Program-made: the position numbers and the translations under genes
Notes under the pieces: model-generated
What the model was told of the DNA's origin: nothing
Seen by the model: the letters and a program-made list of their open reading frames with translations, nothing else
Databases searched by the model: none
NCBI GenBank assembly: GCA_951406725.2
Contig: OX597830.1
Span: 25,048,001 to 25,112,000 of the forward strand
DNA: 64,000 nt
Direction of reading: 5' to 3'
From: Octopus vulgaris
Lineage: Eukaryota
Shown here: positions 17,936 through 64,000 of the stretch, one piece after another
How the letters are laid out: each line of letters starts with the position of its first letter
Position numbering within the stretch: position 1 is the first letter of the stretch

Positions 17936-19115
17936 TAAAGCAATCCAGCTGCCCAACGGAGTGCAACTGCATGTCATCGTGGAAAGCAGGAAGCCCAGAT
18001 GCGACATCTGTGGGGCTACATGCCACCTGAGAGTCTTCTACCCCTAACAACAGCAACAACAGAGACCTTTTAATAAAACTCTAGCCTTGTCTCCAACAAC
18101 AACAAAGGCACATAAACCCCACACAATGGAGAAAACCACCCAGGGTATCTGTCAAACCAGCCCACTCTGACTCTTTTTCTCTCTCTCTCTCTCTCAAGGA
18201 TACACTCACACTATCACAGACACACTCACACTCCCCGAGACATATCCTACTAGTCACTCTTCATCCCGTAGTGAAGTAAGAACCTTACAAAGCAAAAACG
18301 GAAAAGGTAAAACAGACGAACCAATATGAACACCTGAAAACATAGCAATCCCCAACACATTGAACATAGACACAGCAAAATCCACACCGGTACCACCATC
18401 CTCACAACCACCACTACCCCAACCGAATCCTCCAATGCACTCACAATCACACGTAGCCCCCCAAAAGAACGTACACAGCAACCAATACCTATTTCTTTAC
18501 TACCCACAAGGGGCTAAACACAGAGAGGACAAACAAGGACAGACAAACGGATTAAGTCGATAATATCGACCCCAGTGCGTAACTGGTACTTATTATATCG
18601 ACCCCGAAAGGATGAAAGGCAAAGTCGACCTCGGCGGAATTTGAACTCAGAACGTAGCGGCAGACGAAATACCACAAAGCATTTCGCCCGGCGTGCTAAC
18701 GTCTCTGCCAGCTCGCACACAGCAACCAATACCGAAATACCCAATTATGTACTCGTGAGGAGAGCCAGCTAAAATTTGATGGCGCTCATAGCCAGGAACA
18801 AGGAGATTGAAAGAGAGGGTGCAATTTACGACACCAGTGCCCTTAGGGTTCCGGATCATTTAATGCTACCCTTCCAATTTTACAAAGACTTTCAGAGAGG
18901 TTTCACGCATGATGTGGGAAGACCAAACGTTCGTGCCACGAAAAGGCTTCTAGCCGGTTTCCCTGAGTAACCATGACCAGATCCGGAGCCCGGGTTACAG
19001 GGCTGCCAACAGCTCCAGGAGAATAAATAACCCAGCTCTTTTTTCTTTTCCTCAACCCATTCGAGCCGTCATGACGATTGTCAGAGTGAGCTGCACAAAT
19101 GTTCGCGGCCTAAAT
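17935..19115 (+). mobile_element. Tx1/L1-clade fragment: 3' half of ORF1 and start of ORF2, interrupted by a SINE
   Basis: VIVESRKPRCDICGATCHLR (degenerate CCHC knuckle) at 17970-18035. MTIVRVSCTNVRGLN (start of the APE endonuclease) at about 19071. Confidence 0.7.
18490..18716 (-). mobile_element. SINE family C monomer with Tx1-like tail and 17-bp TSD
   Basis: ACACAGCAACCAATACC at 18473-18489 and 18717-18733. Confidence 0.92.
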
Positions 19116-19289
19116 GTTCTACTAAACAATATATATTTAGTAGAATACACACTATTGCAAGTATTTGAATCAGGTTTTCAGGCTAACTGTAACTTCCACT
19201 CTTCTTCTCACTAGACTTCAAAAACCTGAGCGTCGCATGCCTTCCCTTAAGGAAACAATTAAATAAAAAGATGATAAATTAGTATGAAC

Positions 19290-23630: not shown

Positions 23631-24997
23631 AAAGGTTCTATATGGGACGCTGCTTCTGAGAGGTGGTAATCTACGTAACGCCTAGAGGTAACCAACTTTT
23701 CATCAAGTTGCTTATATGGAAATTTAACACAATGTCACTATGTAATGAAACCAATTAACTTTTGATAATCATCGCGTCTCTGCATTCAGAGCGTTCGTCA
23801 TTTTCATCAAAAACTTGCCGAGAAAAAAAAAATCGAAGGAATGAATTTGCATTTGATATGACAATGTAAGATAGCTTTTATTATACTGGGCGAGGACACC
23901 AGTAATGCATTCAGTATATGCGATAGGTCTTAAGTGCATATATTAACATTTTAACATATTTTATATAATAACAGCACATTTCATATAATACCGCTCACAG
24001 GAGGAGCTTCTTCACGTGTACAAGCCGTGACATTTCCGGGTGAAATAGTTTCCCATAAAATAGTTTCAACTTCTTTGAAATGTATTTCACCTTTGGTGCT
24101 TGAAGTAAGCCTTCGAACAAAAAGCATTCTTCTCGGAAGCGATTGTCATTTAAAAGAAAAAAATCTTATATGCTATCCCTTACAATGGATTTTATTTTCT
24201 CTCTTTGAGCCGTTGTGGTTAATAAAGAAATTATTATTATAAAAGGGAACGGGAAGCGGAATTGTAAGAACGTTTGAAGAAATACTTTAGTTTTTTTTTC
24301 TTTCTGGCTCTTAAGGTTCTGAGTTCAAATCCCACTAAAGTCAACCTTACCTTTCATCCTTTCGGGGTCAATATCAACTCTCCTTAAAACTACTGGCATT
24401 GCGCCTAAATCAAAAATCACTATTAGACGACGAACTAGCAGAATCGTTAGAGTGTTTAGTGGCTTATCTTCCTGCTCATCTTCTGAGCTTAAATCCCACC
24501 TTTCAGATCAATAAATAAATTAAAGTGTTGATCAAGTACTAATGTTGATAATATCGATTAACCTTCTCCCCTAAAACTGCTGGCCTAGTACCAAAATTTG
24601 AAGCAATTATTGGGGTGGCAGTGTTGGGAAAATGCTTTATAGTAATTTCTTCGGCTTTTACATTCTCAGTTCAAATTACGCCAAGGTCAACTTGGCCTTT
24701 AATCCTTTCGGGGTTTATGAATTAGGTATCAATGCAATAGTGGAGTCGATTTAATCGACAAGCCTCTTACCGAAAATGTTTAAGACTTGTGCCAATGCTA
24801 GAAAAAATATTATACACTTTTGAATTATTGTCTAATTGTACATATTTCTGAATCAATATGTCTTCATCTATATACAATTTTATCAATACCGCTATATTGA
24901 TTCTGATACTAGATCTTTATCTAAAGGCAACAGTTGCTTATTTACCAGGTAAAAATGATACCATAAGTTGGAAGAAAAAGAAACGAACACATCTAGA

Positions 24998-25250: not shown

Positions 25251-25694
25251 GGAGATTGGCGATTAACTTTAAAATTTTAAAGTGGAACGTCATCGAATTT
25301 AATCTCACCGGTGTCGAGGACCTGCCAAAGCTAAACTGAATAGATCCGCTATAGGTACTGCCCCAGGACTGAGCTAATGCAAAAAGAAAAAAAGCCTTTA
25401 TTTTTCCAGTGTTGCTAAATAACTTAATAAAAATATTAAATGCTATAAATTCTGTTAGTAAATCCAATGGTGTTAATTTGTTGAAATAAATTAGTTCAAG
25501 CTATAATGAGGAGTGGTGAAATCGATATTATGGTCATGGGTTTTTTAACTATTTAGACCGTTTATTTTGGTGAAGTAGCTAACGGACGTAGTTGATGAGT
25601 TTCAAAACCCCAGTGCCGTAAGGAAGTGAGAATCCGACGGTTTCAGTTAGACAGACCAGCTTTTGGCAAACAGGATGATGTTGATCATAAATAT

Positions 25695-25928
25695 ATATTT
25701 CTTTGCTACCCGCAAGGGGCTAAACACAGAGGGGACAAACAAGGACAGACAAACGGATTAAGTCGATTACATCGACCCCAGAGCGTAACTGGTACTTAAT
25801 TTATCGACTCCGAAAGGACGAAAGGCAAAGTTGACCTCGGCGGAATTTGAACCCAGAACGTAACGGCAGACGAAATATAGCTACGCATTTCGCCCGGCGT
25901 GCTAACGTTTCTGCCAGCTCGCCGCCTT
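25695..25928 (-). mobile_element. SINE family C monomer with Tx1-like tail
   Basis: Full head GGCGGCGAGCTGGCAGAAACGTTAGC, CORE-type body and tail. Short TSD ATAAATA. Confidence 0.88.
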
Positions 25929-28717: not shown

Positions 28718-29118
28718 TTTCTACTTTAGGCACAGGGCCCGAAATTGTTGGGGAAAGGGCTAGTCGATTAGATCTACCCTAGTATGCAACTGGTACTTAA
28801 TTTATCGATCCCGAAAAGATGAAGGGTAAAGTCGACCTCGGCGGAATTTGAACTCAGAACGTAAAGTCAGACGAAATACCTATTTCTATTTCTTTACTAC
28901 CCACAAGGGGCTAAACACAGAGAGGACAAACAAGGACATACAAACGGATTGAGTCGATTACATCTACTCCAGTGCGTAACTGGTACTTAATTTATCGACC
29001 CCGAAAGGATGAAAGGCAAAGTCGACCTCGGTGGGATTTGAACTCAGAACGTAGCGACGGACGAAATATCACAAAGCATTTCGCCCGGTGTGCTAACGTT
29101 TCTGTCAGCTCGCCGCCT
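28718..29118 (-). mobile_element. Dimeric SINE family C with 18-bp TSD
   Basis: TTCAGCAA(A/G)ACCGAATCT at 28700-28717 and 29119-29136 flanks two CORE units. Confidence 0.9.
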
Positions 29119-29863: not shown

Positions 29864-30649
29864 GACTAGAGCCTCTACGCATTCGCTTGACCTACTAGAA
29901 AAAAAGTAATCACATTCATTAAAAACTACACATAACTGACTTCAACAAGGAGGATAATGTAGTCCTAGGTACATTGTTTAAAAACTGAGTAGAATGGTTA
30001 TGGATGGAACGCTTTGATCACAAGTTTGCTTAATCAGATATGAATTAGGGTTAAATTCAGAAACAGTCAAAAGAATTGTTAAATTTCTTCCAACCACTTA
30101 AAGTATCGATGATTTTTCGTGAGGTTTTCTTCAAATTTTCTGCGATAATGTACTGATTTCTAGAAAGGTAAAAATGAATGCGATTTTCGTCATAGGATGC
30201 AAAACTACATTTTTTGAAAATAATCTGGAGAAAACTTGATATACTTAAAGTGATTTGAAGAAATTTAACAAGATCCAGATAAATATTTATCGTTGTCTGT
30301 GTGTCTCTTTGTGTGTTATATCCTCGCATAGTGGAAAGGAAATAGAGTGTAATATTAAGATGTCTATTACTGTAGAATCGATAGCGCATCGGACAGAAAG
30401 CAATGAAGCATTTAGCAACGTGCCGTTATGTTCTGCGTTCAAATCCTCTCCTGTATCAAAAAAAAATGATGTACTAATCAAATACTCTATCAACTGTTCC
30501 TCTCTCTTCAAATTCCCGGTTTTGTGCTTTGTTAGAAATGAATATTATGATAGAAATTAGGAAAAAGATATCTTGCTGTCAATATATATATGCCAGTCTA
30601 TCAAATGTGTAAATACATTTATTGCTATTACTCAGGACCAGTAGTTCTC

Positions 30650-31386: not shown

Positions 31387-33787
31387 TAATTGTCTTTGTA
31401 TTCTATTATAATTCCATTTACATGTACGATACTTTACAGATATACTAAATCAACTCCAGTTACTTTACTTTAACAATTCCGCAACACATGAAAAGCAGAG
31501 CTAATTTCGGCGAGATTTGAAATGGCAACGCAATGGGACGTAACTAATTGCTGCAAGTACGATGCTTTAACGAAATGGAAGCGTTTTTTTTTTTTAACAA
31601 AAAAAAAAAAACCCGAAGCGTTTGTCTGAGCTAGCTAACGATTCTGCCAACAAGCCGCCTTGTAAGGCACCCAAATATTGTTATAAAATATCAACGGTGT
31701 CGAATGTGTCATTCCTTCAAGGCCATAAGAATATTTTAATTATTTTATTCCATATTATTCATAGCGACAATTGAATGATATTAATTTTAGTTCATATGAG
31801 TAGAAAATGTTTCTATTGGTGAGAAGTGCTGAAAATGGAAACAGGTCGCGTTTTCTCTGGTACAAAAATTTTGGAATGACGCACTTTTCATTTAGAAAGT
31901 AAATCAACAAATTAAGCAATTTCTTTTATATATACACCCATATACGGCCCACCCTCACGTATGCACAACACGCATGTACACACGAGAGAGGGGGGAGAAA
32001 TAAAGCAAGCAAGCAAGAAAGAAAGAAAGACTATGAGACATCAAGTCCCAGTGGATTTTCCTCTCAGTTCTAACTTTCAAGAATGAATCAATGTCAAAAT
32101 TGAAAGCCATTAAATAACAAATTCTCTCGTCTTTGGCAACTGATAACAAAGAACATAGAAACCTGGGCAGTCTAACCTCACATACCAGAATTTTCTTTTA
32201 ATTAGATGATGTCAGCTAATTCGGCAAATAAGCAAAAATAAAGCACGGCGTCGACTAGAAATTGAAACGTGTTGGGTATATTTAGTTTCTAAACGTCCGG
32301 AAATAACCATAGAGAGGAATTTCAGATTTACGAAAAGTCTCAATAACCGACCCAACGAATCGAAAAATAACAGACATTTCAAAAGACCAGTTAAATATGA
32401 ACACAACTACAATATCAAAGAACCAAGGACGCAAAACTCATCACATGAATTCACAGCCACAACCCATCGTCTATCCCTTTTGTTTATTCAAATTATTTTC
32501 GTGTTAATCAACATATATTCCATGTTAAACTAAGTCATTCCCTCCCTTAACCTCAAGAATGTCTTCCACTTGATTACGCCCATTAGAATTCATTATTTAG
32601 TATATTCTGAAATAGTAGTTGCTATATAGTTAAGGGAAACTGAATTGGGAATGTGCAAAGCATCATCAGTAACAATGGGGCGGTTACCTCTGTAACTTAT
32701 TCTTACACAATGGTTAGATGTTATTACGCATTTCCAACATATGACAACATTTTTAACGAATGACTATTAAAAGCAACTGATATCACCAAAATTCGCAACC
32801 CAAATAAATGCATTAGTTAAGAATGAAACAAATAAATGATATTGTAGTTGTGTTCATGTTTAATAGGTCCCGTGCAAATATCTCAAGCAAAATCTCTCTA
32901 TGTTACGTAGCTAAATGTTTTAGAAACCTATTATTAAAAGCTTGACACTGGACAATGTCCTCTGAACCCCCCCCCCCCCCATATGTATCAGGGTGAGTAA
33001 GAAGTAAGCAACGTTTTGAAACATGAAATCCATCGCAATATATTTCAACAATGCAGAAATTTTATTCACCAAAGTAAATACCATTACAATCAACACATTT
33101 TTGCCAACAAGTTACAAGTTTGTTTATTCCGGTGCTGGTGAACTCTTTGAACGCACTTTCAGCATCGGCTTGATTTTTGAACTCCATCTCTCGCAAGAAA
33201 CAATCAAGGTATTTGAAGAAGGGGTAGTCGGTAGGGAAAAAGTCTGGGAAATAAGTTGGGTGGAGAAGAACTCCGTTGCCAAGTTCCCTCAACTTCTGGA
33301 GCATCATTAGGGTAATATGTGGTCGAGCATTGTCATGATGAATGATATTGGCCCTCTTCTGTTGACCAGTCTGGGACGGAGTAGTAGCAGTTTTTCTTTC
33401 ATGTCAATATGTTTCTGCAGAAATGGTTTTTCACAAAGACGGTCTTTAATTGACCGTCATCGATGACAGATGGGCGTCCACTACGCTCACGATCTGGTTA
33501 CAGAGAAGAAGCAACGAGCAACCATTTTAGAGCTGACGCACTGGTCATTTCCTCACCGAATGTTTCGTGTGGTATCCATTTGTCGATCTTTTTTTATTTT
33601 CCAATCGCATGCAAATGGTTGCAGGCAGTTTTCTGGCAAACTTGATGTTCTTTTGCCAGTCCTCGAGTGGTTTCCGTAGATCTTTCACAAAGACGGTCTT
33701 TAATTGACCGTCATCGATGACAGATGGGCGTCCACTACGCTCACGATCTTCAAGGTTCAGGTCTCCACTACGAAATCGTTTAAACCA

Positions 33788-36775
33788 CCCTTATTTTCCT
33801 GTTAAGGTGATAGATGACTTAACAGACCAGGCCAAGGCTAGAGATGAATGTGCCTGTCAGCGTTCCTTTCACGCGGGTCTTCCATACCGCTTCTTTCGCT
33901 ATAGCAACTACAGCAAGAAAACAAGCCTTGCCTTTCTTAAAAGAGGCAGGAGGAACAATCTTTACAATCGTCTCGGAAGACAGTTGTACTCTTCACATAC
34001 GTGACAGATGTTCTACGTAAATCCACATCTCAGAGATTTTGGGGCATTGCATAATTGCGTGCAGAACGGTTTCCCTGTCCTGCTCGCATCTTGGACACGT
34101 GGGGGCACAACGGGCACCATGCTTTGCGAGTTTATCGCGAACTGGTAAGGCTCCGCCGTAACACTGCTAGACCAGTGATCCTTGGAAGTTATCCAAGGGT
34201 CCTGGCCCGAATGTCCTTCGGAACAGACTAGCTACTTGATCCTCACTGAAGCCGAGTCTTCCCCAGGACATTGTCACATTGAGCCTCTACCAACCCTCTA
34301 TAGAAAGACGAGGTGGAACCCCCGCCGCTGGTGTTGCCTGTGTGACAGAGAAGCTTGGGTGCTTCACGACATTCCGCTTGCCAAAGCACCCAACTTTGGT
34401 CTACACTTGATCCAAGGTCCTAGTTCACTCAAACTAGTAAGCACAGGAAGTAACAACCGAACGAACGGAGACCACACTTGTTCACTATCCCTGTAGAGCC
34501 ACAGGTGCCTCAGCTTCAGTGCAATATGCGCATCAACAGCCAAGGCATCTTAGGTCCACTCTTTAGCGGGTACTGTCAGCAGATAGAGCGCTTTTCAAGA
34601 GGACTCCTACCCCTCCACAAAATGCTGAGGAGCAGCCGCTCCAACATGATCAGCCACGAACGGGGGCAAGGAAAAACGGTTAGGCAATAAACACACCCGC
34701 GACCTCCGCCCTTCTTTTCAGGGACAGCCGCCGCTCAGACCAGGTCTGTGTTAAGTGGGTCACCCTACTCGTCATCTCGCTCCAATTCTTCTCTATCTGG
34801 AAGACTGGACCAAACCAAACTCCTAGCGTTTTAACCGGCCCCTCCGTCCACCGCCCTACGACGTTGATGGGAAGTATTGTTCTGCCTCTCCAGGTGCCGA
34901 GTTGCAAGCCGACTGACTTAACCCGGTTAACTTTTGCTCCTACTACCGTTTCGTAGTCCTTAATGGCTTTGCCTACCCTCTGTAGGTGTACCATCTCGGA
35001 CACGATGATGGTGACGTCATCCACGTACGCCGAAACCTTCCTACTGCAACATAGATCGCGTGGGACGCCCCTCAAACCCTCCACCTTCCGCAGTAAGGGC
35101 TCTAGAGTCAACATATACAGAAGTGGGGATAGAGGACACCCTTGACGAACAGAGCGCTTGATGTTGAACGTCTTCGAGAAGAACCCGTTCATCCGAACGA
35201 TCAAGTCAGTGTTGCTGTATAAAGCAATGATCCACCCACGGAAGACGGGGCCGAGTCCGAATGCTGCGAGGACCAGCACCAGATTTCGATGGTCAACCCT
35301 GTTAAAAGCTTTGAACTAGCCTAAATGGGCCAGCGCCCCACTCTTGCTAGGAGACCTGTTAACCCTCTTTAAGGTGTAGCGTAGAAAGCGTCGTGTATGG
35401 ATCTGCCAGGAACAGCACAAGTTTGTACCTCCCCGACGATTCCACCCAAGACATGTGCCAACCTTTTTGCTAAAACCTTGGCCAAAATCTTCAGCTCTTC
35501 GTTAAGCAGAATGATAGGCCTGAAATTATCTATAATATACCTCTTGTTCGGGTCCTTTCTAAGCAGCATCACCACTCCCCAGCTCACAGATCTGTGTATA
35601 AACCCGTTCTGCTGCCAGTTGGTGAAGACGCATGCCAAAGCTCGTAGGGGAGACCATCTAGTTCCGGCGACTTGTCCCCGCCGCAGTCCGGCAAAGACTC
35701 CTGCACCTCTACAGCTGTGATCGGCCCCTCACAGCACTCCACTTCCAGCCCAGAGTGACGCAGCATGCCAGCGAGGAAGTCCGTGAGATTCCTCCTCCAT
35801 TCCGGCCCGCCGCCCCTCCCGAAAAGCAGGATGAAATGCTCCTGAAAGACCTTACACCTCTCCTCGGGTTTGTTTACCAAGTACCCTTGATTATTCATCA
35901 AACACCTTATAGTGACATTATTGTCACGTTGGGTTTCTATCACACGGGCCCGTCCTGCGGCTTTGATTCCTTCCCGTCCCATTGCATGTTGCTTAGCCCT
36001 GACTACGCATCCTTCGTTTTTAACCACGCGGTGATGGTTAAGCACCATTCTCGCAGCTAAAACTCGAAGCGCGGAGCCTGATTCCAGTGCTTCGTATTGG
36101 ACGCTAGCTAAATCCCTTTTTATTCTATTTTTCTTAGCCACTAACTCTTTCCTGTACCTAATAGACTCGAATTTTATAGCTCTTTTGAGACATACCACTA
36201 TTTGTTGTTAATAATGGCACCACACAATGCCCTCATCACTGACTATCTAATGCACCGTAGTGCATTAGGAGTTGTTTCACTGGGAGGAGTGATCACAATT
36301 CTGCTCCTTTCCCTTTTCAACATTCCTTTATATTTTCCTAATTCATCGTTTCCGCAGTTAATTGACCTTTTTGAAATAGTGGCCGCTTCTGCAAAATTGC
36401 TTCCTTTTTTTTTCCTTGCAAGAAATCCTCTGCTGACGGTATGTTTTTTAATCCTGTGCTATTTTCTGTCTTTTTTTTTTTTGGTATTCTTCCATGAACT
36501 TGAACTTGTACCAGGTTCATTCCCAGTTTTCAACTTGATTGGAGATTCATCCATGTTTGTGCATTTTTTTCACAAAAATTTAACTATATTTTTTCCCCTT
36601 CGTACAAGGGTGAAAAAGTTAACAAGCGACTGCCTCAAGCAGACAAATTATGTTTTACACAAAAAAAACACTAAACAAAAAGTTAACGTAACAATCCAAC
36701 AGTGTAAATTCAACAAAATATCCACAAATATTACAAACCTATACCAAACATTTCGAACAACGCACAAACAAAACG
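33788..36775 (-). mobile_element. Tx1-clade LINE A: 5' UTR and ORF1 N-terminus fused by deletion to a disrupted ORF2 RT; 3' end lost
   Basis: SPELDGLPYE, FRPIILLN..KILAKVLA, RQGCPLSPLLY, SAYVDDVT and a C-terminal ETVLHAIMQC zinc finger. The ORF1 start KGSNFAEAA..MLKRERSRIVITPPSETT is homologous to ORF1 of the adjacent element. Confidence 0.9.
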
Positions 36776-36788
36776 ATGATTGTAACAA

Positions 36789-38210
36789 TTTCTTTATTAC
36801 CCACATGGGATTAAATACAGGGGGGACAAATACAAACATATAAGTGGGGACGTAAAAGAACAAACGAATGGGAAAATTGTAAATATGAATAATGAAATGG
36901 AATGAAGCCACTCGACCCTACATCCGAGTGACTTCATTTACACTTTTTTTTACAAACTTATAATTAAGATAGTTTAACTTAGGCGGCAAATTACTTGCGT
37001 CTGCTGGTACGCCTATGTCCAATGTTTCTGTCCCACAGTTTTCCATTAAATATTTTTCGGTGTTAGGGTTAGAGAGTTTTGGGCACTAGTCTATTTGTGT
37101 TATTGTCTGCGTCAGGAGGGAAAGGGGGGCGGTTGGTGACTGCAGGGGGAGGGTGTAATAGCATGGGATCGGGTGAAACTTCACATTTTTTCCTCAGACC
37201 TTTTTTTAGTTTTCCCCCTTTTAGATTGTGTCCATTCCTGCTCTTCATCCTTCCCAGGCTCCTCCTCGCTTGTAGACGACTTCGCCAGAGATGGAGGTGC
37301 GAATTTTTCTCTTGGTTCTTTTGCACTGGGTTGAAGGCAGTCTGCTTTAATGTGGTCTTTTCCCTCCACATTTAAAACACCTGGGCGTCCTGCCCTCCAC
37401 CATGACTCTCAACTTGATGTCCCCGTCGACCGTCCTTTCTAGATATTCCGGGGCGGCCTGGATCACCATTTCCAGGCCTTGCCCATGCCAATTTCTTGTC
37501 GGCACAATTTTGGTCCTCCATAATAAGTAGGATGGCGACTACCAGCCAGGCAACATCTACCTCAGGAGGGATCTCATCTACCCTTACCCCGAGAAGCACG
37601 TTTTCCAGGGTAAATGAGTAGAAGGACCACCTCCTCCGTCTTGAGGGGAGTAACGGCATGCTGCCTTGCCACAGCCTCGGACGCAAACTGCACCTCCACC
37701 GTTGCGAACTTTCTCCCTCTAGCTAGGTAATCCACCTCTTTCCAAATGGGCTGCACAGCCTTTTCCACTTCACCTCTCGTAGCCACCTTTATCCGATGCA
37801 GTCTTACGTTGTATGTTCTATACAACACCGTTCTTTTGGCTGTCCTTTCGGTAGTTTCCCTGGGAGGAGACACCTTGACATTGTTCCTCTCCCTTTTTAT
37901 CATTTCTTGGAATCTTTCAATTCCCTCCAAACACACATCTTCAGACTGCTGTCTCACCGCCTCTACGAAACTGTTCCTTTTTGCCTCTCTATTTCGTCTA
38001 GACATGCCACCAGCTCCTCCTCAAACGACAACAGGTCTGAGTAGCTCATTCTCTCTATTTTAATAGCGCTTCACCCTTCAAACAAGGGAGACAGCGTTAA
38101 CAAAACTGCTGTAAGGCAGCAAAAACAAGTGTCTTAAGACACAATTAATAACAAATACAATTTTGACTAACCTTTCGCACAAACAAAATTCACGATCAAC
38201 TCGGTCACAA
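36789..38210 (-). mobile_element. ORF1-only non-autonomous Tx1-clade element N, copy 1
   Basis: Frameshifted ORF1 (37574-38005 and downstream fragments) with CCHC knuckle CFKCGGKDHIKADC, followed directly by a 3' UTR. TSD ATGATTGT(A/G)ACAA at 36776-36788 and 38211-38223. Confidence 0.87.
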
Positions 38211-38439
38211 ATGATTGTGACAACGGGGAAAAAAATCAATGTTAATTTATTGATGCATTTGGGTAAGTCCGTATCTATATTATCAAACAATTTCAAAAAA
38301 TGTTTCAAAACAATTCAAAACTCTGCAAAAATCCGGTACAAATTCTTCGTGGTTCAAAACGTTGCTTACATTTTACACAACCTGATATATAGCCTCTATA
38401 CAGTTTCTCAACCTGCAAGACACATATAGTATCAGAAGC

Positions 38440-44575: not shown

Positions 44576-45002
44576 GCCTTGTGAGTGGATTTGGTAGACG
44601 GAAATTGAAAGAAGCCTGTCGTATATATGTATATATATATATATATATATACTAGCAGTATCGCCCGGCGTTGCTCGGGTTTGTAAGGGAAATAACTATA
44701 AAGCATTTTTAGAGAGTTATAGCAAAAAATGGGAAAAAAATGATGGTAAATTTTTTTTTAGTTAAAAAGGTCGATGTGCGTCCCCTAGACAGTCTGTGGT
44801 TTGTGTTTCTGATTCTCGACCCCATGTCGAATTTATCGATTTTTTCAGAACTGGGGAACTTTTCAAAATTTTCGCTGCGTTAGTTTTGAATTATGACATT
44901 GGGCTATGTGTGTGTCAAGTTTCATCAGAATCGGTTGAAAGCCGTGGTCAGGGTGAGGGTACAAGCAAACAGACACACAGAAACACACACAGACAAACTG
45001 CC

Positions 45003-45069
<67 letters not shown>

Positions 45070-45290
45070 AATGTGTTTGTGTGTCTGTGTTTGTCCCCCT
45101 AGCATTGCTTGACAACCGATGCTGGTGTGTTTACATCCCCGTCACTTAGCGGTTCGGCAAAATAGACCGATAGAATAAGTACTGGGCTTACAAAGAATAA
45201 GTCCCGTGGTCGATTTTCTCGACTAAAAGGCGGTGCTCCACCATGGCCGCAGTCAAATGACTGAAACAAGTAAAAGAGTAAAAGAGTATG
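44576..45290 (+). mobile_element. SINE family B with a Helitron nested in its internal (TA)n
   Basis: SINE body at 44576-44625 and 3' half at 45065-45290 flank the Helitron. Confidence 0.85.
44652..45012 (-). mobile_element. Non-autonomous Helitron, sister of 6189-6568
   Basis: Near-identical sequence, with hairpin CCCGAGCAACGCCGGG followed by CTAG|T. Confidence 0.87.
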
Positions 45291-46365: not shown

Positions 46366-48254
46366 CGTGATAGAAGGAAGGTTTTTATGATACTTTTGGA
46401 GTATCTTCTTCCATTATAATTATTCTGTTGATTCAAGGAGCTGAGAATACGAAGAACGAAGTTCTCAGGCGGAGTAAATTCGATAACCGTTTATTCACTG
46501 GTGCTTCCTACAAGGAGTTTGCTTTCAGTAACCATCTTCACAGCAGAGCGTAGTTAGCCTTCTCTCCCATACACGTGAGGTTCAATAACCTCTGGAGATA
46601 ATGCATGTGGTATCACAGCGGGACAAAAGTCCGCTGTGAGCTCCTGGCTTCGAAGTCTTGCTCGGCGTCAACGTGAGAAGAATGAGAGGGAAGATGTCTT
46701 TTCCTTGAATAATGGTTGCAGGCGAGATCTCGCTATTTCAAAATGGCACTGGCTTCTTTGTGCCTTGGTACAGGGGTTCCGCCTGAGAACGCCAATGCGA
46801 AAATAGAGAATAACTGGAGCAAGCACAAGAAAAGAGCAAAGATGGTAACCGATCGCAAACAACAAGATATGGTACAAAAATGTGACAAGTCAAAAAGAAA
46901 AATAATTGCAAGAAATATAAATCGGCATGCACAAAATTTGACAAAATGTTCAATGGCAGAGTATTGGAATTGTTAGAAAGCAACTGTCTGTCACAGGAAA
47001 CACAAAAGAGATTGTCAGATATAAATAGTTTTAAGCTTTTTAGTCCAATGCACAGTACGACTTGTCCTGGTGACATAAGGTTTGTTAGTGTTAGGTTGTG
47101 GTGACGAAGGTGGAGGTGTAGGTGATAGTGTGGTCAAAGGTGTATGTGCGGGTGGATGTGGAGGTGGTTGTAAAGGATCGAAAGTGGGCGTGGTCGAAAT
47201 GTCATCGAAAGATGTGGAAACCTCAAAATATCCCTTTTTAAGTCTGTCAACTAACACGGTATCTGCCCGACCATTGATGTCGAGACTAAAAGTTTTGGGT
47301 GTACGCGATAGCACACGAAACGGTCCTTTATAGAGAGAAACGAGCAGTCCTCTGACAGAATCATCCCGAACAAAAACATGAATCCACTTGTCAATGTCCG
47401 GTGGAACGTGAGAAGGAATAGATTGGTCACGCGGATACATTGGTGAAAGACTCGAGAAATACGAGGGAGGTCTGGTGACATACGACGTTGGATCAGGATG
47501 TGATGAATTGGCTGGTGCTAACATTGTACCAGGAAGTGCCAAGGTGGTACCGTAAAGGAGTTAGGCAGAGGAGAAATCTACGTCTGTCTTAACGGCGGTG
47601 CGACAACCAAGAAGAAAGATAGGCCGGGATTCTGTCCAAGACTGCGGATCAGGAGTGGCGCGTAGAGCGGTCTTCAGTTGCCTGTAAAAACGTTCGACCA
47701 TCCCGTTGGAGGTTGGATGGTAGCTGGTCGTACGAATGTGATGAACACCTAGGATTCTTGATAATTCACGAAATAAGGAAGCTTCGAACTGGCGTCCACG
47801 GTCAGTAGTTATTTTAGCTGGAACACCAAAACGAGCAATCCTACCATTTTATAATGGAAGGAAAGTTTTTATGATACTTTTTGGGTTATCTTCTATTATA
47901 ATTCTGTTGATTCAAAGAGCTGGAAATACGAAGAATGAAGTTCTCAGGCGGAGTAAATTCAATAACCGTTTATTCACTGGTGCTTCCTACAAGGAGTTTG
48001 CTTTCAGTAACCATCTTCACAGCAGTGCGTAGTTAGCCTTCTCTCCCATACACGTGAGGTTCAATAACCTCTGGAGACAATGCATGTGGTATCACAGCGG
48101 GACAAAAGTCCGCTGTGAGCTCCTGGCTTCGAAGTTTTGCTCGACGTCAGCGTGAGAAGAATGAGAGGGAAGATGTTGTCTTTTCCTTAAATAATGGTTG
48201 CAGGCGAGATCTCGCTGTTTCAAAATGGCACTAGCTTCTTTGTGTCTCGCTACA
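46366..48254 (-). mobile_element. Internally deleted Gypsy LTR retrotransposon with two LTRs of about 405 bp and a 4-bp TSD
   Basis: LTRs at 46366-46772 and 47850-48254, with CTGT TSD at 46362-46365 and 48255-48258. Integrase [31 protein letters not shown] and a YKGPF (GPY/F) motif at 47015-47840. Confidence 0.92.
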
Positions 48255-50429: not shown

Positions 50430-50592
50430 ATCAGAGGTTAAGAAGCTTGCTTCTCAGCCGCATAGTTCTGAGTTCAGTTCCAATGCGTGGAACCATGGGC
50501 AAGTATCTTCTACAATAGCATCGGGCCGACCAAAGCCTTGTGACCGGATTTGGTACATGGAAAGTGAAAGAAGCCCGTCGTGTGTGTGTGTG

Positions 50593-50633
<41 letters not shown>

Positions 50634-50838
50634 CTTCATGTCTGCGTTTGTTCCCCCTACCACCGCTTGACAACCGGTGTTAGTGTGTTTACGTGCCTTA
50701 ACTTAGCGGTTTAGTAAAAGATGCTGATGGAATAAGTACCAGATTTTAAAATGAGTGCTGAGGTCGATTCATTCGATTTAAAACGCGGTGCTCCAGCATG
50801 GCTGCAATCTAATGACTGAAACATGTAAAAGATAAAAG
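50430..50838 (+). mobile_element. SINE family B, near full length
   Basis: Head, body, (TG)n, 3' half and GTAAAAGATAAAAGA tail. Confidence 0.82.
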
Positions 50839-50977
50839 ATGTTTCCAAAACATATTAGGTGTGCGTTCCAGTTGCCTGTCATGCCAAGTCACGAAATCTT
50901 CTGATAGGTACGCATACGATAATCGAAGTATTTTTATGCGGCTGATATAATACCTGGTTTCTTCATAAATTCTAATA

Positions 50978-51841
50978 CAGTCAACTCTCGCTACTATGCC
51001 ACCCTGCGGGACTGAGCCAAAGTGGCATAGTACCGAGAGTGGCATAGTACCGAGGGTCTGTTATCTAAACACTACATAACCAAAAATTTACTGAACATAC
51101 GAATAAAAATTCATAGGGTAGAAAGTAAGGCCAATAAGAAGTTCAATGCAATGGTAAAAAGAAGACATCCAAGTTTATTAAGTTCAGATTGCTTTTAGTT
51201 AATCCCGAAGCTCTCAAAAATTGTCGGCTGACGCATCTTCTTTCGGCGGATTTCATTAATTTCGTTGTCTAGCCTATCGCACGCCTGCATGACGCTGGGT
51301 TTTCCGCTGCTCTGCTGCTGCATAAACTTTCGGATAGTGCTCCATGCTCTCTGGGCATCTGCAAACGAAACGTATTCCTCTTCCACAATTACATCGTCGT
51401 CTTCACTTTCCACCGGCTCTTCGTTATGCATTACCTCCTTTGCTATTTCTTCAAGAGTGAAACATGTCGGACAATACAAGGGGCGGTAACTTGTATAAGA
51501 TATTACTAATGATACGAGGGGCCCGACAATAACGTTTTTCGCAGCATCGATAATCTCCTTCTTTTCCTTTAGCGTAAACTCAGTCCGCTTGCGTTTCTGA
51601 GCTGACATTGTGTGCTACTTTCTGAACTTTTCCACAAGATTACAAATACGAAATGTACAAAATGTAGGAGTACAAAATTTCGAAAAGTTGCGTGCGCTTC
51701 AGTTTACAAGTGCCATAGTAGCGAGAGTTGAGGGTGGCATAGTAAAAATTTTTTGTTTATTATTTGGTCGGGACCGCGCAAAACTGGCACAGTAGCGAGA
51801 GTGGCATAGTAGCGAGGTGGCATAGTAGCGAGAGTTGACTG
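50978..51841 (-). mobile_element. Tigger/pogo non-autonomous element with a fused N/C-terminal transposase ORF
   Basis: TIR of about 25 bp CAGTCAACTCTCGCTACTATGCCAC and subterminal GTGGCATAGTAGCGAG repeats. ORF 51195-51608 runs KRKRTEFTLKEKKEII ... RQPTIFESF with no DDE core. Confidence 0.9.
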
Positions 51842-55230: not shown

Positions 55231-55286
<56 letters not shown>

Positions 55287-55290
<4 letters not shown>

Positions 55291-57743
55291 GTTGAGTAAA
55301 AAGTAAGCAACGTTTTGAAACATGAAGTTCATCACAATGCAGAAATATTATTCATCAAAGTAAGTACCATTACAATCAACACAGTTTTGCCAACGAGTTA
55401 CAGGTTTGTTTATTCCGGTAACATAAAAATCTGGAGTTCAGGAGTTGATGAATTCTTTGAACGCACTTTCAGCATCGGTTTGATTTTTTAACTCCTTCTC
55501 TCGCAGGAAACCATCTAGGCGCTTGAAAAACCACCATACAGTCCCAATAAACTTCTATTTGAAGAGCTCGGGTTTAGGGAAGCTTTTCGGTGCTTCATTT
55601 TGGCCCAACCACTACGAAGAACGTTTCTTTTTTATTATTATTGTACAGAATCCACTTTTCACCGCAAGTTAAAACGCGGTCGAGAAATGGATCGGTCTGT
55701 TTACAGAGAAGAAGCAACGAACAAATTTCATATCTGCGCATTTTCTGATTTTCATTCAAATCGTGTAGTATCCATTTGTCGATCTTTTTTGATTTTCCAA
55801 TCGCATGCAAATGGTTGCAGGCAGTTTTCTGGCAAACTTGAAGTTCTTTTGCCAGTTCTCGAGTGGTTTACGTGAATCTTTCTCAAAGACGGTCTTTAAC
55901 TGACCGTCATCGATGACAGATGGGCGCCAACTACGCTCACGATCTTCAAGGCTCAGGTCTCCACTGCGAAATCGTTTAAACCATTTTCGAGCTGACCACT
56001 CACTGGTCATTTTCTTACCAAACGTTTCCTTCATATCGATGGCGCTTTCGGCTGCTTTACGTCCTTTTTTGAGGTTGAATAGCAAAAATTGCTCCATTTC
56101 AGATTATTGTAACAACGATTTCTTTATTACCCACAAGGGGCTAAATACAGGGGGACAAATACAAACAGATAAGTGGGGACGAAAAAAGACAAACGAATGG
56201 AAAAATTGTAAATATGAATAATGAAATGGAATGAAGCCACTCGACCCTACATCCGAGTGACTTCATTTACACATTTTTTTTTACAAACTTATAATTAAGA
56301 TACTTTAACTTAGGTGGTAAATTACTTGCGTCTGCTGGTACGCCTATGTCAAATGTTTCTGTCCCACATTTTTCCATTAAACCAAAACACTTTTTCGGTG
56401 TTAGGGTTAGGGCGTTTTGGGCAACTGTCTGTGTTATTGTCTGTGTCAAGAGGGACAGGAGGACGGTTGGTGACTGCAGAGGGAGGGTGTAACAGCATGG
56501 AATCGGGTGAGACTTCACACTTTTTTCCTCAGACCGTTTTTTAGTTTTCTTCATTTTAGATTGTGTCCATTCCAGCTCTTCTTCCTTCCCAGGCTCCTCC
56601 TCGCTTCTAGATGACTTCGCCAGAGGCGGGGGGTGCGAATTTTTCTTTTGGTTCTTTTGCGCTGTGTAGAGGGCATTCTGCTTTAATGTGGCCCCACATT
56701 TAATATACCTGGGCGTCCTGCACTCCCCATGACTCTCAACTTAATGACCCCGTCGACTGTCCTTTCTAGATCTTCCAGAGCGGCCTGGCTCACCGTTTCC
56801 AGGCCCTGCCCATAACAATTTCTTGTCGGCACTCTTTTTTACCTGGAGGACCACAATTCTGGTCCTCCATATTAAGTAGGATGGCGGCTACCAGCCAGGC
56901 AATATCCACCTCAGGAGGGATCTCATCTACCCTTACCCCGAGAAGCACGTTTTCCAGGGTAAATGAGTAGAAGGACCACCTCCTCCGTCTTGAGGGGAGT
57001 AGCGGCATGCTGCCTGGCCACAGCCTCGGACGCAAACTGCACCTCCACCGTTGCGAACTTTCTCCCTCTAGCTAGGTAATCCACCTCTTTCCAAATGGGC
57101 TGCACAGCCCTTTCCACTTCACATCTCGTAGCCACCTCTATCCGATGCAGTCGTACGTTGTATGTTCTATACAACACCATTCTTTTGGCTGTCCTTTCGG
57201 TAGTTTCCCTTGGAGGAGATACCTTGACAGTGTTCCTCTCCCTTTTTATCATTTCTTGGAATCTTTCAATTCCCTCCAAACACACATCTTCAGACTGCCG
57301 TCTCACCGCCTCTGCGAAACTGTTCTTTTTTGCCTCTCTATTTCGTCTAGACATGCCACCAGCTCCTCCTCAAACGACAACAGGTCTGAGTAGCTCATTC
57401 CCTCCATTTCTTTACAGCGGTTCCTCTTTCAAACAAGGGGGACAGCGTTAACAAATCTGCCGTAAGGCAGCAAAAACAAGTGTCTCAAGACACAACAATT
57501 AATAACAAATACAACTTTGACTAACCTTTCGCACAAACAAAATTCACGATCAACTCGGTCACAAATGATTGTAACAACGGTGAAAAAAATATCAATGTTA
57601 ATTTATTGATGCATTTGGGTAAGTCCGTATCTATATTATCAGACAATTTCAAAAAAAATGTTTTAAAACAATTCAAAACTCTGCAAAAATCCGGTACAAA
57701 TTCGTCATGGTTCAAAACATTGCTTACTTTTTCCTCAACCTGA
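55287..57743 (-). mobile_element. Mariner copy 2 (defective) carrying Tx1-clade element N
   Basis: TA-flanked TIRs as in copy 1. Transposase HTH (KWFKRFRSGDLSLEDRERS) at 55756-56097 and FLDRVLTCGEKWILY at 55595-55810. Confidence 0.92.
56118..57564 (-). mobile_element. ORF1-only non-autonomous Tx1-clade element N, copy 2
   Basis: Colinear with 36789-38210. TSD AT(T/G)ATTGTAACAACG at 56103-56117 and 57565-57579. Confidence 0.88.
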
Positions 57744-58666
57744 TATATATTTATACTTGAATATTCATCGTCTGGAAAATTTCAGTCGTTGTCTTCTCTC
57801 TATTTACATGTATTCATATATGTATATCTAACCGAAACAGTTTTATTTGTTTATTTGCATCATTATCTCTATATACATACGTATACATGCATGTGTATGT
57901 ATATCTACTAGACAAATGAGAGTGTATGTGTCTATGTCTGAGTATATAACCCCCAAAGGCTCTGAAATCTGCATCCCAAAGAGGAGGTTTTCAGTAAATA
58001 ATATCCAAAAGATACAATTTGATACGAAAAATAACTCAAGTTTTAGATCGTTAAATCTCCTGTCGTCTCTCTCTCTCTCTCTCTCTTTCCACACACTCTC
58101 TCACTCTTTCTCTGTATATGTATATCTCCCATGCATGCCGCTCTCTTCCTATCACTCCCTCTGAGTCTTCATATGACAAGTAATTTCTTTCATGTTGTTT
58201 AAAACTTCGTCGCTGTTATCTGTTTGCTTTCATTTTATGAATTTAAATTCCGGGGTGATCTACCTTAACTTTCTTGACTATCTTGATTAGTATTAACCAT
58301 TAATCTAATGTACTGTTTTTTCTCTTTGCTACGGCAGTAACGTTAATCAATTAAAAATTTCTTGGTTCTCCACAAATACTACCTTCCAAATCCCGTTTTC
58401 TGGTTGGGTAAAAATTATGAAGCTTTAAACATGTGTAACGTTTTCCTAATTTTCTTTCTGGAATAAACGAATCCCAAAATTGGATTCAGAGTGAAAAATT
58501 ACACCAATATACCAAAATTGAAAATTTTCACTTAATTTAAAAATTTCAAAATCTGTGACAGCAACTGAAAAGATCCCGTCTCTAGCTGCCTCTTTCTTTG
58601 TCTTTTACGCTTTTTTCATTGTAAACAATACCCTTCTCTCTCTCTCTCTCTCTCGCTATATATATA

Positions 58667-60007: not shown

Positions 60008-60551
60008 CTTTTCTACTCTAGGCACAAGGCCCAAAATTTTTTGGTGATGTGATCAGTCGATTAGATCGACCCAATACGCAACTGGCACTTAATTTATCGA
60101 CCGGAAAGGAGGAAAGGTAAAGTCGACCTCGGCGGAATTTGAACTCAGAACGTAACGGCAGACGAAATACCTATTTCTTTACTACCCACAGAGAGGACAA
60201 ACAAACGGATTAAGTCGATTATATCGACCCCAGTACGTAGCTGGTACTTATTTAATCGACCTCGAAAGGATGAAAGGCAAAGTCGACCTCGGCGGAATTT
60301 GAACTCAGAACGTAGCGGCAGACGAAATACCTATTTCTTTACTACCCACATGGGGCTAAACACAGAGAGGACAAACGGATTAAGTTGATTATATCGACCC
60401 CAGTGCGTAACTGGTACTTAATTTATCGACCCCAAAAGGATGAAAGGCAAAGTCGACCTCGGCGGAATTTGAACTCAGAACGTAACGGCAGACGAAATAC
60501 GGCTACGCATTTCGCCCGGCGTGCTAACGATTCTGCCATCTCGACGCCTTG
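60008..60551 (-). mobile_element. Trimeric SINE family C with 15-bp TSD
   Basis: ACTGACAG(T/A)TATAAT at 59993-60007 and 60552-60566 flanks three CORE units. Confidence 0.9.
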
Positions 60552-61119: not shown

Positions 61120-61505
61120 GTGGAAGCACTCCGTCGGTTACGACGACGAGGGGTCCGGTTGATCCGAATCAACGGAACAGCCTGCTCGTGAAATTAACGT
61201 GTAAGTAGCTGAGCACTCCACAGACACGTGTACCCTTAACGTAGTTCTCGGGGATATCCAGCGTGACACAGAGAGTGACAAGGCCGGCCCTTTGAAATAC
61301 AGGTACAACAGAAACAGGAAGTAAGAGTGAGAGAAAGTTGTGGTGAAAGAGTACAGCAGGGATCACCACCATCCCCTGCCGGAGCCTCGTGGACCTTTAG
61401 GTGTTTTCGCTCAATAAACACTCACAACGCCCGGTCTGGGAATCGAAACCGCGATCATATGACCGCGAGTCCGCTGCCCTAACCACTGAACCATTGCGCC
61501 TCCAC
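61120..61505 (-). mobile_element. Full-length SINE family A with 12-bp TSD
   Basis: CCTTACACATAT at 61108-61119 and 61506-61517. tRNA head with GGTTTCGATTCCC B box. Confidence 0.9.
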
Positions 61506-61891: not shown

Positions 61892-64000
61892 CCAGGGGTG
61901 GGGAAACTTTTTAGTGCGGTGGGCAAAATATTCCAAAGAAAAAAGTCCGCGGGCGGATCACAAGTTCTGTGTATATATCTTTGTATAATTCGATATACAT
62001 TAATAAAGATAAGTTTAACACATTAAATTAACGCGTAACACCTTCATTAACGCCACCACTGAATTTAGGACGTTTATATTACTTATGAGGTATTCTATAG
62101 TTTTCAAAATGTACCTATCCTAATGTTGGAGAAATCATAACAGTTAAGCACAGACCGAATTTAATTTGAAAAATTACATTAATACCTAAATAGTATTATG
62201 TGTAAATGACATGTTTGAACAAATTTATCCTAGTGATCATTTTATTAAAGGTAATTAACCTTTACTTTAAAATTTGGCTTTGCTTAGTGAGAAGAATGAA
62301 ACTACTTTTTCTTTTTTTTTTCTTTTTTGAAAGTTTAGGAATATCATGTCTTTGAAGAAACTGCTATTCTTACTTCATTACTCAGGTTTTCGTTAGTAAG
62401 TCTGGTACGAAGACGATTTTTTTGCATAATTCAGTTTGGTAAAAAAAACTGCTCATATTGATAAGTTGTCGAAAATTGAGATACGAATTTCAAGGTATTT
62501 TTATGTAAAGCAGGTAATTTCTCAGGATTGATGGGTTTGTAGAAGTTCAATAAAGACAGATTACTATATTTTGATTTTATTAAGTTATCCAATTGCAAAT
62601 TAATTAAATCTAATTGTAAGGAATCCGGTGCCTCCTCAGGACACATATCAAAAGGTGTCTCAAAAACACATAGTTCGATTTTATCTTGTATTTCTTCAAA
62701 TCTTTCAAATTTCTTCAAAAGTCTTTCACACTCGTCAGAATATTCCTTTATTGATTTGGGATTTTGTTCGTTCATTTTCGGAAAATGTGTGAAGTACTTT
62801 CTTTTCAATTGTATGACAAATAAATGAAGCATCGATTCAAAGCTTTTGATATGAGAAAGCAAACTGGTTATTAGCTGATTGGAGCCTTGTATTATTTAAA
62901 TGGCTAGCTATATCTACTAAAAATGTTAAATCACTTTGAAACTTTTCATCTTCCAGTTCTATAATAGGAACACCTTTAATATCTATAAAAAATTTCGCTT
63001 CTTACTTCAGTTCATAAAATTGCTTAAGCATTTGGGCCTTACTTAACTTCACAATGGTGTGATAAATCCCCATATTGGGCTTCAAGATCTTTCAAAAATT
63101 CTTTAAATTCCCTATTATTCAACCCTTTGCTTTTTATCAAATTAACGGCCTTAGTTACAGCTTTAATTGCATTGACAATCTTGAGAGATTTTGCACATAA
63201 ACTTTCCATATGAATAAAGCGGACCCAAAAGTCGCTTCTTAAATTCATTCTTAATCAAACCTACGAACCCTTTTTCACGACCGACCACAGATGGAGCGCC
63301 ATCTGTGGCAAGACCACTCATTTTTTCATATGAAATTAACCATCACCTCTAATTGTTCCATGCATTGGTTTCAAGGAAAGAAATTCTTCCCGAATGTTGA
63401 ATTTTGCAGTTATTGCACGTATAAATATTGCCGTGTGAGTAGTATTAGACAGATCAGTTGTCTTATCAATAGCTAATGAATACAATACGAATTCTACTGA
63501 ATCAGATTTTAGAGAATTTTGAATGAGATCAGCAATATCTTTAATACGATCGGAAACAGTTCTTCTTGATAAGCTAATATTTCCAAACAAATTAATTTTT
63601 TCTTGGCATATATTCTCAACAGCAGTAAGGAGACATTTTTTCACGAATTCACCATCGCTATGTGGTTTGAGATTTTTAGCAATATTTTCGTATACCGCAT
63701 AATTAGCTCCAGTAACTGATTAACTCTCAAGAATTGGCCTTTTAAAAAAATGTTTGTCTTTTGGTCAGATTTTCTTTCAAGGAGGCTATCTTGTCAAAAC
63801 GTTCAGATTCTTTCAAATTTCCATAAATCTTATGCTTACTCATAAAATGCTTCCTTATATTATATTTTTTATGAAAGGTTACTTGTTCGTTGCAAATAAG
63901 ACAAATGCACTTATCTATTTCAATAAAAAAAATCAGTCCATTTTTCATCAAACAAAGTACGTTTACCAGCACTTTTATAACCGCTTGCCATATTGATAAA
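61892..64000 (-). mobile_element. hAT transposon (Charlie/SPIN/GTF2IRD2-like) with a frameshifted transposase, running off the window
   Basis: Terminus CAGGGGTGGGGAAAC. BED finger CLICNEQ..NIRKHFMSKH, ISLSRRTV, YSLAIDKTTDLS and a C-terminal FSTTYQYEQFF dimerisation motif. Confidence 0.9.

What the first reader, a model, noticed from the sequence alone, without database searches (positions are those of the whole stretch)
56118..56170. A CORE-type SINE shares its tail with the 3' end of the Tx1 element
Seen: the Tx1-N 3' terminus (plus strand TTTCTTTATTACCCACAAGGGGCTAAATACAGGGGGACAAA, also at 36789) nearly matches the SINE C segment TTTCTTTACTACCCACAAGGGGCTAAACACAGAGAGGACAAA at 18492, 25698, 28889 and 60334. 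Known: SINEs often borrow the 3' end of their partner LINE, usually L2, CR1 or RTE; Tx1-type tails are uncommon. Inference: this SINE subfamily is or was mobilised by the Tx1 machinery, adding a third tier (SINE on LINE on DNA transposon).
Basis: partly seen in the sequence, partly recalled or inferred. Interest (0 to 1): 0.7.

Follow-up and report, generated by a model that had tools for sequence, protein, structure and literature searches.

The report
Octopus SINE with Tx1-type LINE tail
In this octopus DNA, a young subfamily of short parasitic repeats (SINEs) ends in the same 43-base tail as a defective L1/Tx1-type retrotransposon that sits inside a mariner transposon, so it likely borrowed the copying enzyme of that retrotransposon group, although it does not insert at the mariner site itself.

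Summary
The shared tail is real. The last 43 nt of element N (56118-57567, and a second copy at 36789-38213) match the tail of four SINE copies at 34-39 positions and end in register; scores 44-67 against at most 35 in shuffles. The window is from an octopus. N carries ORF1 only and has no poly(A). It sits in a mariner at the same site as a related element with an L1-group reverse transcriptase, whose own 3' end is deleted. Mobilisation of the SINE by an L1/Tx1-group enzyme is the best reading (0.6), but no autonomous 3' end could be obtained. Corrections: the SINE lacks the CORE hallmark motif; the two N copies may be one insertion copied with the mariner; 2 of 4 SINE loci carry the tail internally in multimers that end in another tail; 0 of 4 use the mariner site. 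All tail types share a hairpin with a CUUGU-like loop, which keeps the reverse direction open. A SINE/Tx1/mariner hierarchy is already described in crocodilians (SINEU), there without a shared tail.

The parts
56118..56172 (-). 3' tail of element N1 shared with the SINE: pyrimidine-rich stretch, 4-bp hairpin with CTTGT loop, then AATAAAGAAAT, no poly(A)
56118..57567 (-). Element N1: ORF1-only non-LTR element, 1450 nt; ORF1 from 57354 to the stop at 56267 with frame breaks; 149-nt 3' UTR that opens with a 14-bp hairpin; no ORF2 remnant detected
56106..56117 (.). Target-site duplication of N1, 12 bp exact; partner at 57568-57579 (15 bp with one mismatch)
55286..57745 (-). Defective mariner-type DNA transposon hosting N1; terminal inverted repeats, TA flanks, Mos1-type HTH
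   Evidence: (HTH_48, E 2.5e-11)
36789..38213 (-). Element N2, 6.5% diverged from N1, same 5' nucleotide, same ORF1 frame break; duplication 36779-36788 / 38214-38223 with one mismatch
33788..36778 (-). Element B: internally deleted L1-group element in tandem at the same mariner site; ORF1 start homologous to N, ORF2 with RT; last ~32 codons of ORF2 and the 3' UTR deleted
32987..38386 (-). Second copy of the defective mariner, hosting N2 and B; shares a frame break with the first copy
18490..18716 (-). Solo SINE ending at tail C; exact 17-bp duplication 18473-18489 / 18717-18733; inserted antisense in ORF1 of fragment Q
25694..25928 (-). Solo SINE ending at tail C; 7-bp duplication 25687-25693 / 25929-25935
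28718..29118 (-). SINE dimer: full monomer with tail C (tail at 28887-28945) followed by a 5'-truncated monomer with tail A; 18-bp duplication with one mismatch around the whole
60008..60551 (-). SINE trimer: tail C (60332-60376), internally deleted tail C (about 60172-60204), tail A; 15-bp duplication with one mismatch around the whole
17937..19127 (+). Fragment Q: third element of the same ORF1 family (zinc-knuckle region, ORF1 end) followed by the start of an endonuclease-type ORF2 at 19071; truncated at both ends
   Evidence: (iE 8.4e-7)
24210..24231 (+). Orphan tail-like stretch, 20 of 22 identical to the end of N, followed by TAT repeats; no SINE body or ORF upstream
   Evidence: (E 0.002 within the window)

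Best explanation
The SINE subfamily and element N end in the same 43-nt tail without poly(A); the SINE likely took this tail from an L1/Tx1-group retrotransposon related to N and was likely copied by that group's reverse transcriptase. Shown: N is an ORF1-only element inserted with a target-site duplication at the same mariner site as element B, which encodes an L1-group RT. The SINE keeps the head and body of older copies but has a different tail from the end of the body onward. Inferred: N needed an ORF2 protein in trans, and with no poly(A) to bind, that protein probably recognised the tail hairpin and primed about 11 nt downstream. The SINE probably gained the tail by a template switch from a sister family of N, since three fixed differences separate them. 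Inferred from two junctions only: priming was helped by pairing of the cut target with RNA just beyond the tail. That would explain why N, read through into mariner DNA, returns to the mariner site while the SINE lands at sites that resemble its own read-through (GGTATTT, the start of the next monomer in multimers). The SINE therefore likely parasitises the enzyme but not the mariner habitat. Multimers that end in tail A were probably primed at tail A.
For: Homology in register, far above shuffles. N's ORF1 family is tied to an L1-group ORF2 three times: B carries both, Q has ORF1 followed by an ORF2 start, and database protein P0189 joins an N-type ORF1 part to a B-type ORF2 part. The profile of B's relatives matches L1 ORF2p at E 1e-45 and R2 at 1e-25. 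N and B abut at one duplicated target. Ages overlap: SINE-C pairs 7.0-10.0% (6 pairs), N1/N2 6.5%; tail-C monomers are more alike (5-11%) than solo tail-A/B copies (9-25%). 2 of 4 loci end at tail C with their own duplications. N keeps AATAAA where the SINE has AGTAAA or AGCAAA. An orphan tail without SINE body exists. The solo junctions match the multimer read-through at GGTATT (38 occurrences in 128 kb) and TATTT (1.5% of positions within the offsets allowed). Loop-specific recognition of 3' hairpins is shown for L2 elements (PMC4176376, passages) and RNA-target annealing is proposed for SART1 and R1Bm (PMC7265360, passages).
Against: No autonomous 3' end was seen (B deleted; empty). N1 and N2 share a frame break and are as diverged as their mariner hosts (5.8, 6.8, 9.5%), which also share a frame break, so N may be one event. 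The tail folds no better than shuffles (z -0.83 to +0.32 for the six tails). Older SINE tails A and B have a hairpin with the same loop, so tail C could descend from the SINE lineage. Duplication lengths do not separate the classes: tail C 7 and 17, tail A 15 and 18, tail B 16, N 10-15. 0 of 4 SINE sites resemble the mariner target. Tx1 clade membership was not tested by a tree with reference elements. The junction argument was made after seeing the data and rests on two copies.
Confidence: 0.6

Rival explanations
1. The tail belongs to the SINE lineage, or to a LINE of another clade that serves all three SINE tails. An ancestor of N acquired it from a SINE fragment at its 3' end and later moved by relaxed recognition or only by hitchhiking in the mariner.
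For: Tails A, B and C share a hairpin with a C(T/C/A)TG(T/C) loop and covarying stems: 10 of 11 window-wide hits lie in SINE or N tails, against a simulated mean of 2.8. N may be a single event. Tails A and B often run into ATT-type repeats, which from my own knowledge is more typical of CR1, L2 and RTE partners.
Against: Tails A and B show no significant linear similarity to tail C or to N's UTR (7 copies, 41-500 of 500 shuffles score as high). N carries no SINE body upstream of the shared stretch. N's duplication encloses ORF1 and tail together at the site used by B. An orphan tail occurs without a SINE body.
Confidence: 0.2
2. The tail came from an L1/Tx1-group element once, but it is a passenger. 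The active template is the multimer, copied by the partner of tail A, and the solo copies arose when that enzyme primed internally at the look-alike hairpin.
For: 3 of 5 tail-C instances are internal, and both multimers carry duplications around the whole unit and end in tail A. The terminal A monomers of the two multimers are closer to each other (8%) than to other copies (11-23%). Both solo junctions match the multimer read-through.
Against: Solo copies end within 1-3 nt of the register of N's end. The same read-through match is expected if an L1/Tx1-group enzyme primed them. The partner of tail A is unknown and may itself be of this group.
Confidence: 0.15
3. The match is convergence between two pyrimidine-rich 3' ends that carry a polyadenylation-like signal.
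For: The segment is of low complexity, and a weak TTTGTCCCC-type match also occurs in another SINE family at 45082 (E 0.087).
Against: No dinucleotide-preserving shuffle of N's own 3' UTR came near the observed scores; 39 of 43 identities in register.
Confidence: 0.03

Closest known systems
SINEU / Tx1-Mar / Mariner-N4_AMi of crocodilians (Kojima 2015, PMC4494074; parts 2-4 of 5 of the text and passages read)
   Same: SINE inferred to depend on a Tx1 LINE that targets a mariner; tandem insertions around a duplication; hitchhiking in the mariner considered as a confound.
   Different: SINEU has snRNA heads and poly(A), shares the target (13-90% of copies) and no tail donor was found. Here the head is tRNA-like, the tail is shared, there is no poly(A), and 0 of 4 copies use the target.
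Xenopus Tx1L in Tx1D (as described in the introduction of PMC4494074)
   Same: L1-group retrotransposon inserted at a fixed site of a non-autonomous DNA transposon.
   Different: The host there is piggyBac-type; no SINE partner is mentioned in the passage read.
SINE/LINE pairs with L1-clade tails: ZmSINE2, ZmSINE3 with LINE1-1_ZM; SINEX-3_CR with L1-1_CR (Ohshima 2013, PMC3747384; parts 1 and 8 of 8 and passages read)
   Same: About 50-nt shared 3' end with a hairpin whose stem covaries and whose loop is conserved.
   Different: Plants and algae; 3 of 58 pairs surveyed. No animal L1 or Tx1 pair appears in the rows of Table 1 that I saw (a few mammalian rows not seen).
Tail-swapping SINE superfamilies (CORE, Deu/Nin/Inv, V, Meta; PMC4824008, PMC4758252, PMC5786205, PMC5804259, passages)
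   Same: One head and body with several alternative tails.
   Different: Partners named in those passages are L2, CR1, RTE or Vingi. The CORE hallmark is missing from this SINE.
Half-L1 (HAL1) elements (known to me from recall and from the citation in PMC4494074; paper not read)
   Same: ORF1-only non-autonomous derivative of an L1-group element.
   Different: N has a zinc-knuckle type ORF1 family, a fixed target and no poly(A).
Octopus SINEs OK, OR1, OR2 and Twain (OR1/OR2 named as CORE-SINEs in PMC4824008 and PMC4758252; OK and Twain recalled, sources not held)
   Same: Abundant tRNA-derived octopus SINEs; this family is very probably already in repeat libraries under some name.
   Different: Their consensus sequences could not be seen, so identity with any of them is untested.

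Membership tests
CORE-SINE | Central CORE domain with the conserved CCTTGGG block (PMC5786205) | tested here: not met
   No match in the body of 4 of 4 loci; the only 1-mismatch hits are the tail loop. The motif occurs in a different SINE family at 13975, 23308, 29580, 50493. By eye the body resembles the region 3' of the CORE block in one published SINE; not computed.
tRNA-derived SINE | Short interspersed repeat, tRNA-like head with pol III boxes, target-site duplications | tested here: inconclusive
   Short, interspersed, with duplications and a B-box-like GTTCAAATTCC. ARAGORN and Rfam give no tRNA hit, so the tRNA origin rests on the box-like motifs.
Deu/Nin/Inv (alpha) domain SINE | Central domain similar to the published consensus | not testable with these tools
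   SINEBase supplements unavailable. Mollusc Nin sequences seen show no clear match by eye. The resemblance to the alpha/Inv domain is recalled only.
L1 group of non-LTR retrotransposons (elements B, N, Q) | ORF1 plus ORF2 with APE endonuclease, RT and C-terminal zinc domain, RT closest to L1 | tested here: met
   Relatives of B carry PF03372, PF00078 and PF13966; best solved match is L1 ORF2p. N has ORF1 only and is tied to the group through B, Q and P0189.
Tx1 clade | RT clusters with Tx1L, Keno, Kibi, Koshi in a tree | not testable with these tools
   No named reference sequences of these elements were returned by any search.
Tx1 clade | Target-sequence preference | tested here: inconclusive
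   N and B abut at one mariner site with a duplication, but Q is not in a mariner and N1/N2 may be one event.
SINE/LINE pair of the stringent type | Shared 3' end with a non-LTR element, in register | tested here: met
   the partner seen is non-autonomous
SINE/LINE pair of the stringent type | Same 3' end on an autonomous ORF2-bearing element | not testable with these tools
   B's 3' end is deleted; searches found nothing.
SINE/LINE pair of the stringent type | Conserved 3' stem-loop | tested here: inconclusive
   4-bp hairpin present in 6 of 6 full tails, one compensatory-type change in N2, but stability no better than shuffles.
SINEU-like system | SINE shares the Tx1 target in a mariner | tested here: not met
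   0 of 4 loci. With two solo copies a weak preference like the 13-23% of SINEU-1 and -2 is not excluded.
mariner DNA transposon (host) | Terminal inverted repeats, TA flanks, Mos1-type HTH | tested here: met
   the catalytic triad was not examined

The most novel reading that the evidence does not exclude
Octopus L1/Tx1-group reverse transcriptases are stringent hairpin readers that recognise a CUUGU-type loop regardless of stem sequence, and they drive this whole abundant SINE superfamily (tails A, B and C). Insertion sites are chosen largely by the RNA read through beyond the tail: mariner DNA for the LINE, the next SINE head for the SINE, which would make SINE multimers self-propagating.
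Probability: 0.2. Interest if true: 0.7.

Novelty: new variant of a known kind. Interest (0 to 1): 0.42.

Why it matters
L1-clade tails are rare on SINEs: 3 of 58 pairs in one survey, all in plants and algae (PMC3747384). The one Tx1-dependent SINE group my searches found has no identified tail donor (PMC4494074). If autonomous octopus Tx1 elements end in this tail, this is an animal tRNA-type SINE with a Tx1-type tail and evidence that some L1-group enzymes in animals read a hairpin instead of poly(A). It would also name a partner for part of the SINE expansion that makes up 11.6% of the O. vulgaris assembly (all SINEs together; PMC13282606), and it gives a small testable unit: one 43-nt tail, one loop and one target site. 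The principle of tail swapping is well known, so the gain is for specialists.

Tried and rejected
Autonomous 3' end: a tail pattern and an ORF2 alignment against the bacterial and archaeal genome collection gave 0 matches and 0 of 15 confirmed stretches; an antisense peptide of the tail gave 0 of 5 candidates; C-termini of 137 ORF2 relatives, read by eye, showed no read-through into such a tail. Viral and metagenome contigs stayed unchecked, and no octopus assembly was available. Literature: four window motifs found in no full text and tail motifs in none of the readable supplements of PMC9115989 (file 7 yielded 94 characters of text). The 2015 octopus genome paper is not held, SINEBase supplements could not be read, and the O. 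vulgaris repeat supplement holds no sequences; repeat libraries I could not see may already record this pair. Searches for a prior report; none listed an octopus SINE with a Tx1 tail. ORF1: word-indexed search 0 of 77, no Pfam or solved-structure match for the N piece, atlas hits all under 0.9; a structure prediction had not finished after repeated collection attempts and gave no result. Folding energy gave no support. Duplication length was uninformative. The covariation count (4 of 4 pairs with double changes, 0 of 500 shuffles) used only the 10 tails that had passed the hairpin scan and spans about three lineages, so it is descriptive. Of 18 monomers examined (17 of the 23 seed hits plus one more; six truncated or unrelated hits left out), 9 had the full hairpin, 3 had three pairs, 2 had the loop with one or two pairs, and in 4 it was not located. 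Rejected: chance match; CORE label; N1 and N2 as proof of two independent insertions; a physical SINE-on-mariner tier.

Full report
Source. The window is repeat-rich animal DNA. Named relatives of the ORF1 of element N come from Octopus vulgaris, O. sinensis and O. bimaculoides, and named relatives of the neighbouring RT from Argonauta and a cuttlefish. The species was not determined.

Observation. A pattern covering both versions of the segment has six matches in the window, at the six stated places, and none in 100 shuffles. All 8 SINE-by-N comparisons align at the very ends, 34-39 identities in 42-43 nt, with scores of 44-67; no shuffle of N or of its 3' UTR exceeded 35.

Element N and its host. 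N1 (56118-57567, minus strand) lies in a defective mariner (inverted repeats, TA flanks, Mos1-type HTH) with an exact 12-bp duplication. It encodes only ORF1: 149 relatives were found, 2 of 43 aligned members score for a CCHC knuckle, and no ORF2 remnant is detectable. After the ORF1 stop come 149 nt: a 14-bp hairpin, an AT-rich stretch and the shared tail, which joins the target with no poly(A). N2 sits at the same site of a second mariner and is followed directly, across the duplicated target, by element B. B has an ORF1 start homologous to N and an RT whose relatives carry APE, RT and zf-RVT domains and match L1 ORF2p far better than R2. B's last codons and 3' UTR are deleted, so the decisive comparison is missing from the window. 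A third fragment, Q (17937-19127), shows the same ORF1 family followed by an ORF2 start. N is thus a non-autonomous member of an L1-group lineage. The Tx1 label fits the zinc knuckle and the tandem insertion at one site (own knowledge, and PMC4494074) but was not tested by a tree. N1 and N2 differ by 6.5%, their mariner hosts by 5.8-9.5%, and each pair shares a frame break. They may be one insertion copied with the mariner.

The SINE. One head and body occur with three tails in the window: A and B, often followed by ATT-type repeats, and C, the shared one. Tail-C monomers are the more homogeneous group (5-11% against 9-25%) and differ by 7-10% over their length, which overlaps the age of N. 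The body lacks the CORE hallmark; that motif belongs to another SINE family in the window. Two loci end at tail C with duplications of 17 and 7 bp. Two are multimers in which tail C is internal and the duplication encloses the whole unit, which ends in tail A. None of the four is in a mariner and none resembles the mariner target (8-68% of random sites score as high). One solo copy is nested antisense in ORF1 of Q.

Structure. Tail C and N fold a 4-bp hairpin with a 5-nt loop about 11 nt from the end, no more stable than shuffles. The same loop closes a hairpin with a different stem in tails A and B: 10 of 11 such hairpins in the window lie in these tails, against 2.8 expected. The pattern was defined after seeing the tails, and in 9 of 18 monomers examined the hairpin is damaged or was not located. 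Tails A and B are otherwise not significantly similar to tail C. This cuts both ways: it fits loop recognition by related enzymes, as shown for L2 elements (PMC4176376, passages), and it leaves open that tail C arose within the SINE lineage.

Mechanism. N could only be copied by an ORF2 protein in trans, and it landed where B landed. Its RNA end is the tail without poly(A), so that protein probably primed on this tail (inference). The solo SINE copies stop in the same register. The simplest reading is a tail swap from a sister family of N, followed by trans-mobilisation. Both solo junctions also match the sequence that follows tail C in the multimers, which suggests priming by RNA-target pairing as proposed for SART1 and R1Bm (PMC7265360, passages). 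This rests on two junctions. It would explain why the SINE uses the enzyme without sharing the mariner site. Confidence 0.6; reverse capture or another partner 0.2; passenger tail in multimers 0.15; convergence 0.03.

Comparison. Tail swapping is standard for SINEs (PMC4824008, PMC5786205, passages). L1-clade tails are rare, 3 of 58 pairs, in plants and algae (PMC3747384). The three-level arrangement is known from crocodilian SINEU, Tx1-Mar and Mariner-N4_AMi, where the target is shared and no tail donor was found (PMC4494074). This case is the mirror image: shared tail, unshared target. Eight literature searches listed no report of it, but Repbase, Dfam, SINEBase sequences and the 2015 octopus genome supplement were not visible. 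Other papers were seen as follows: PMC13282606 part 1 of 3 and a supplement search; PMC4758252, PMC4824008, PMC5804259 and PMC9115989 passages and supplement searches; PMC8967140, PMC3531059 and PMC12988792 passages only.

Verdict. A real shared tail and a plausible, unproven L1/Tx1-group partner; a new variant of a known kind. Interest 0.42.

Noticed in passing
window 622-726 (+): Full-length match to U6 snRNA (75.8 bits) with a degenerate 5' part; probably a pseudogene.
   Followed up: no
window 17937-19127 (+): Fragment Q of an L1/Tx1-type element (ORF1 end, ORF2 start) hosting the SINE at 18490-18716 in antisense; not in a mariner.
   Followed up: partly
window 24210-24240 (+): Orphan 3' end like N's (hairpin with GTTGT loop, AATAAAGAAAT, TAT repeats) with no recognisable body upstream.
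   Followed up: partly
window about 25940-26010 (-): Stretch just upstream of the SINE at 25694-25928 looks like a decayed tRNA-Asp gene; the label is from recall, and ARAGORN (down to a 70% threshold) and Rfam found nothing.
   Followed up: partly
window 6834-7000, 13904-14039, 23250-23634, 29341-29662, 44576-45285, 50436-50839: A second SINE family; four copies carry the CORE-type CCTTGGGCAAG motif. Possibly OR1/OR2-like; not compared with their consensus.
   Followed up: partly
window 56231-56266 and 36902-36937 (-): 14-bp hairpin directly after N's ORF1 stop, identical in both N copies; role unknown.
   Followed up: no
window 33429-33495 / 33683-33749: Exact 67-nt direct repeat inside the second mariner, marking an internal rearrangement that includes an inverted piece.
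   Followed up: no
window 46370-46772 / 47854-48254: Two direct repeats of about 400 nt, 93% identical, around a short coding remnant; probably the ends of a deleted LTR element (label from recall; no Pfam hit).
   Followed up: no
window 2-269, 19293-19622, 15816-16042, 61126-61309: A further dispersed repeat family of about 270 nt.
   Followed up: no
window 4071-4718, 5267-5896, 30554-31376, 51195-51614, 62431-63719: Coding remnants that look like Helitron, non-LTR, mariner, Tigger and hAT pieces; labels from recall, no Pfam hit for the frames tested.
   Followed up: no
window 2019-2587: Tandem repeat array of about 570 nt.
   Followed up: no
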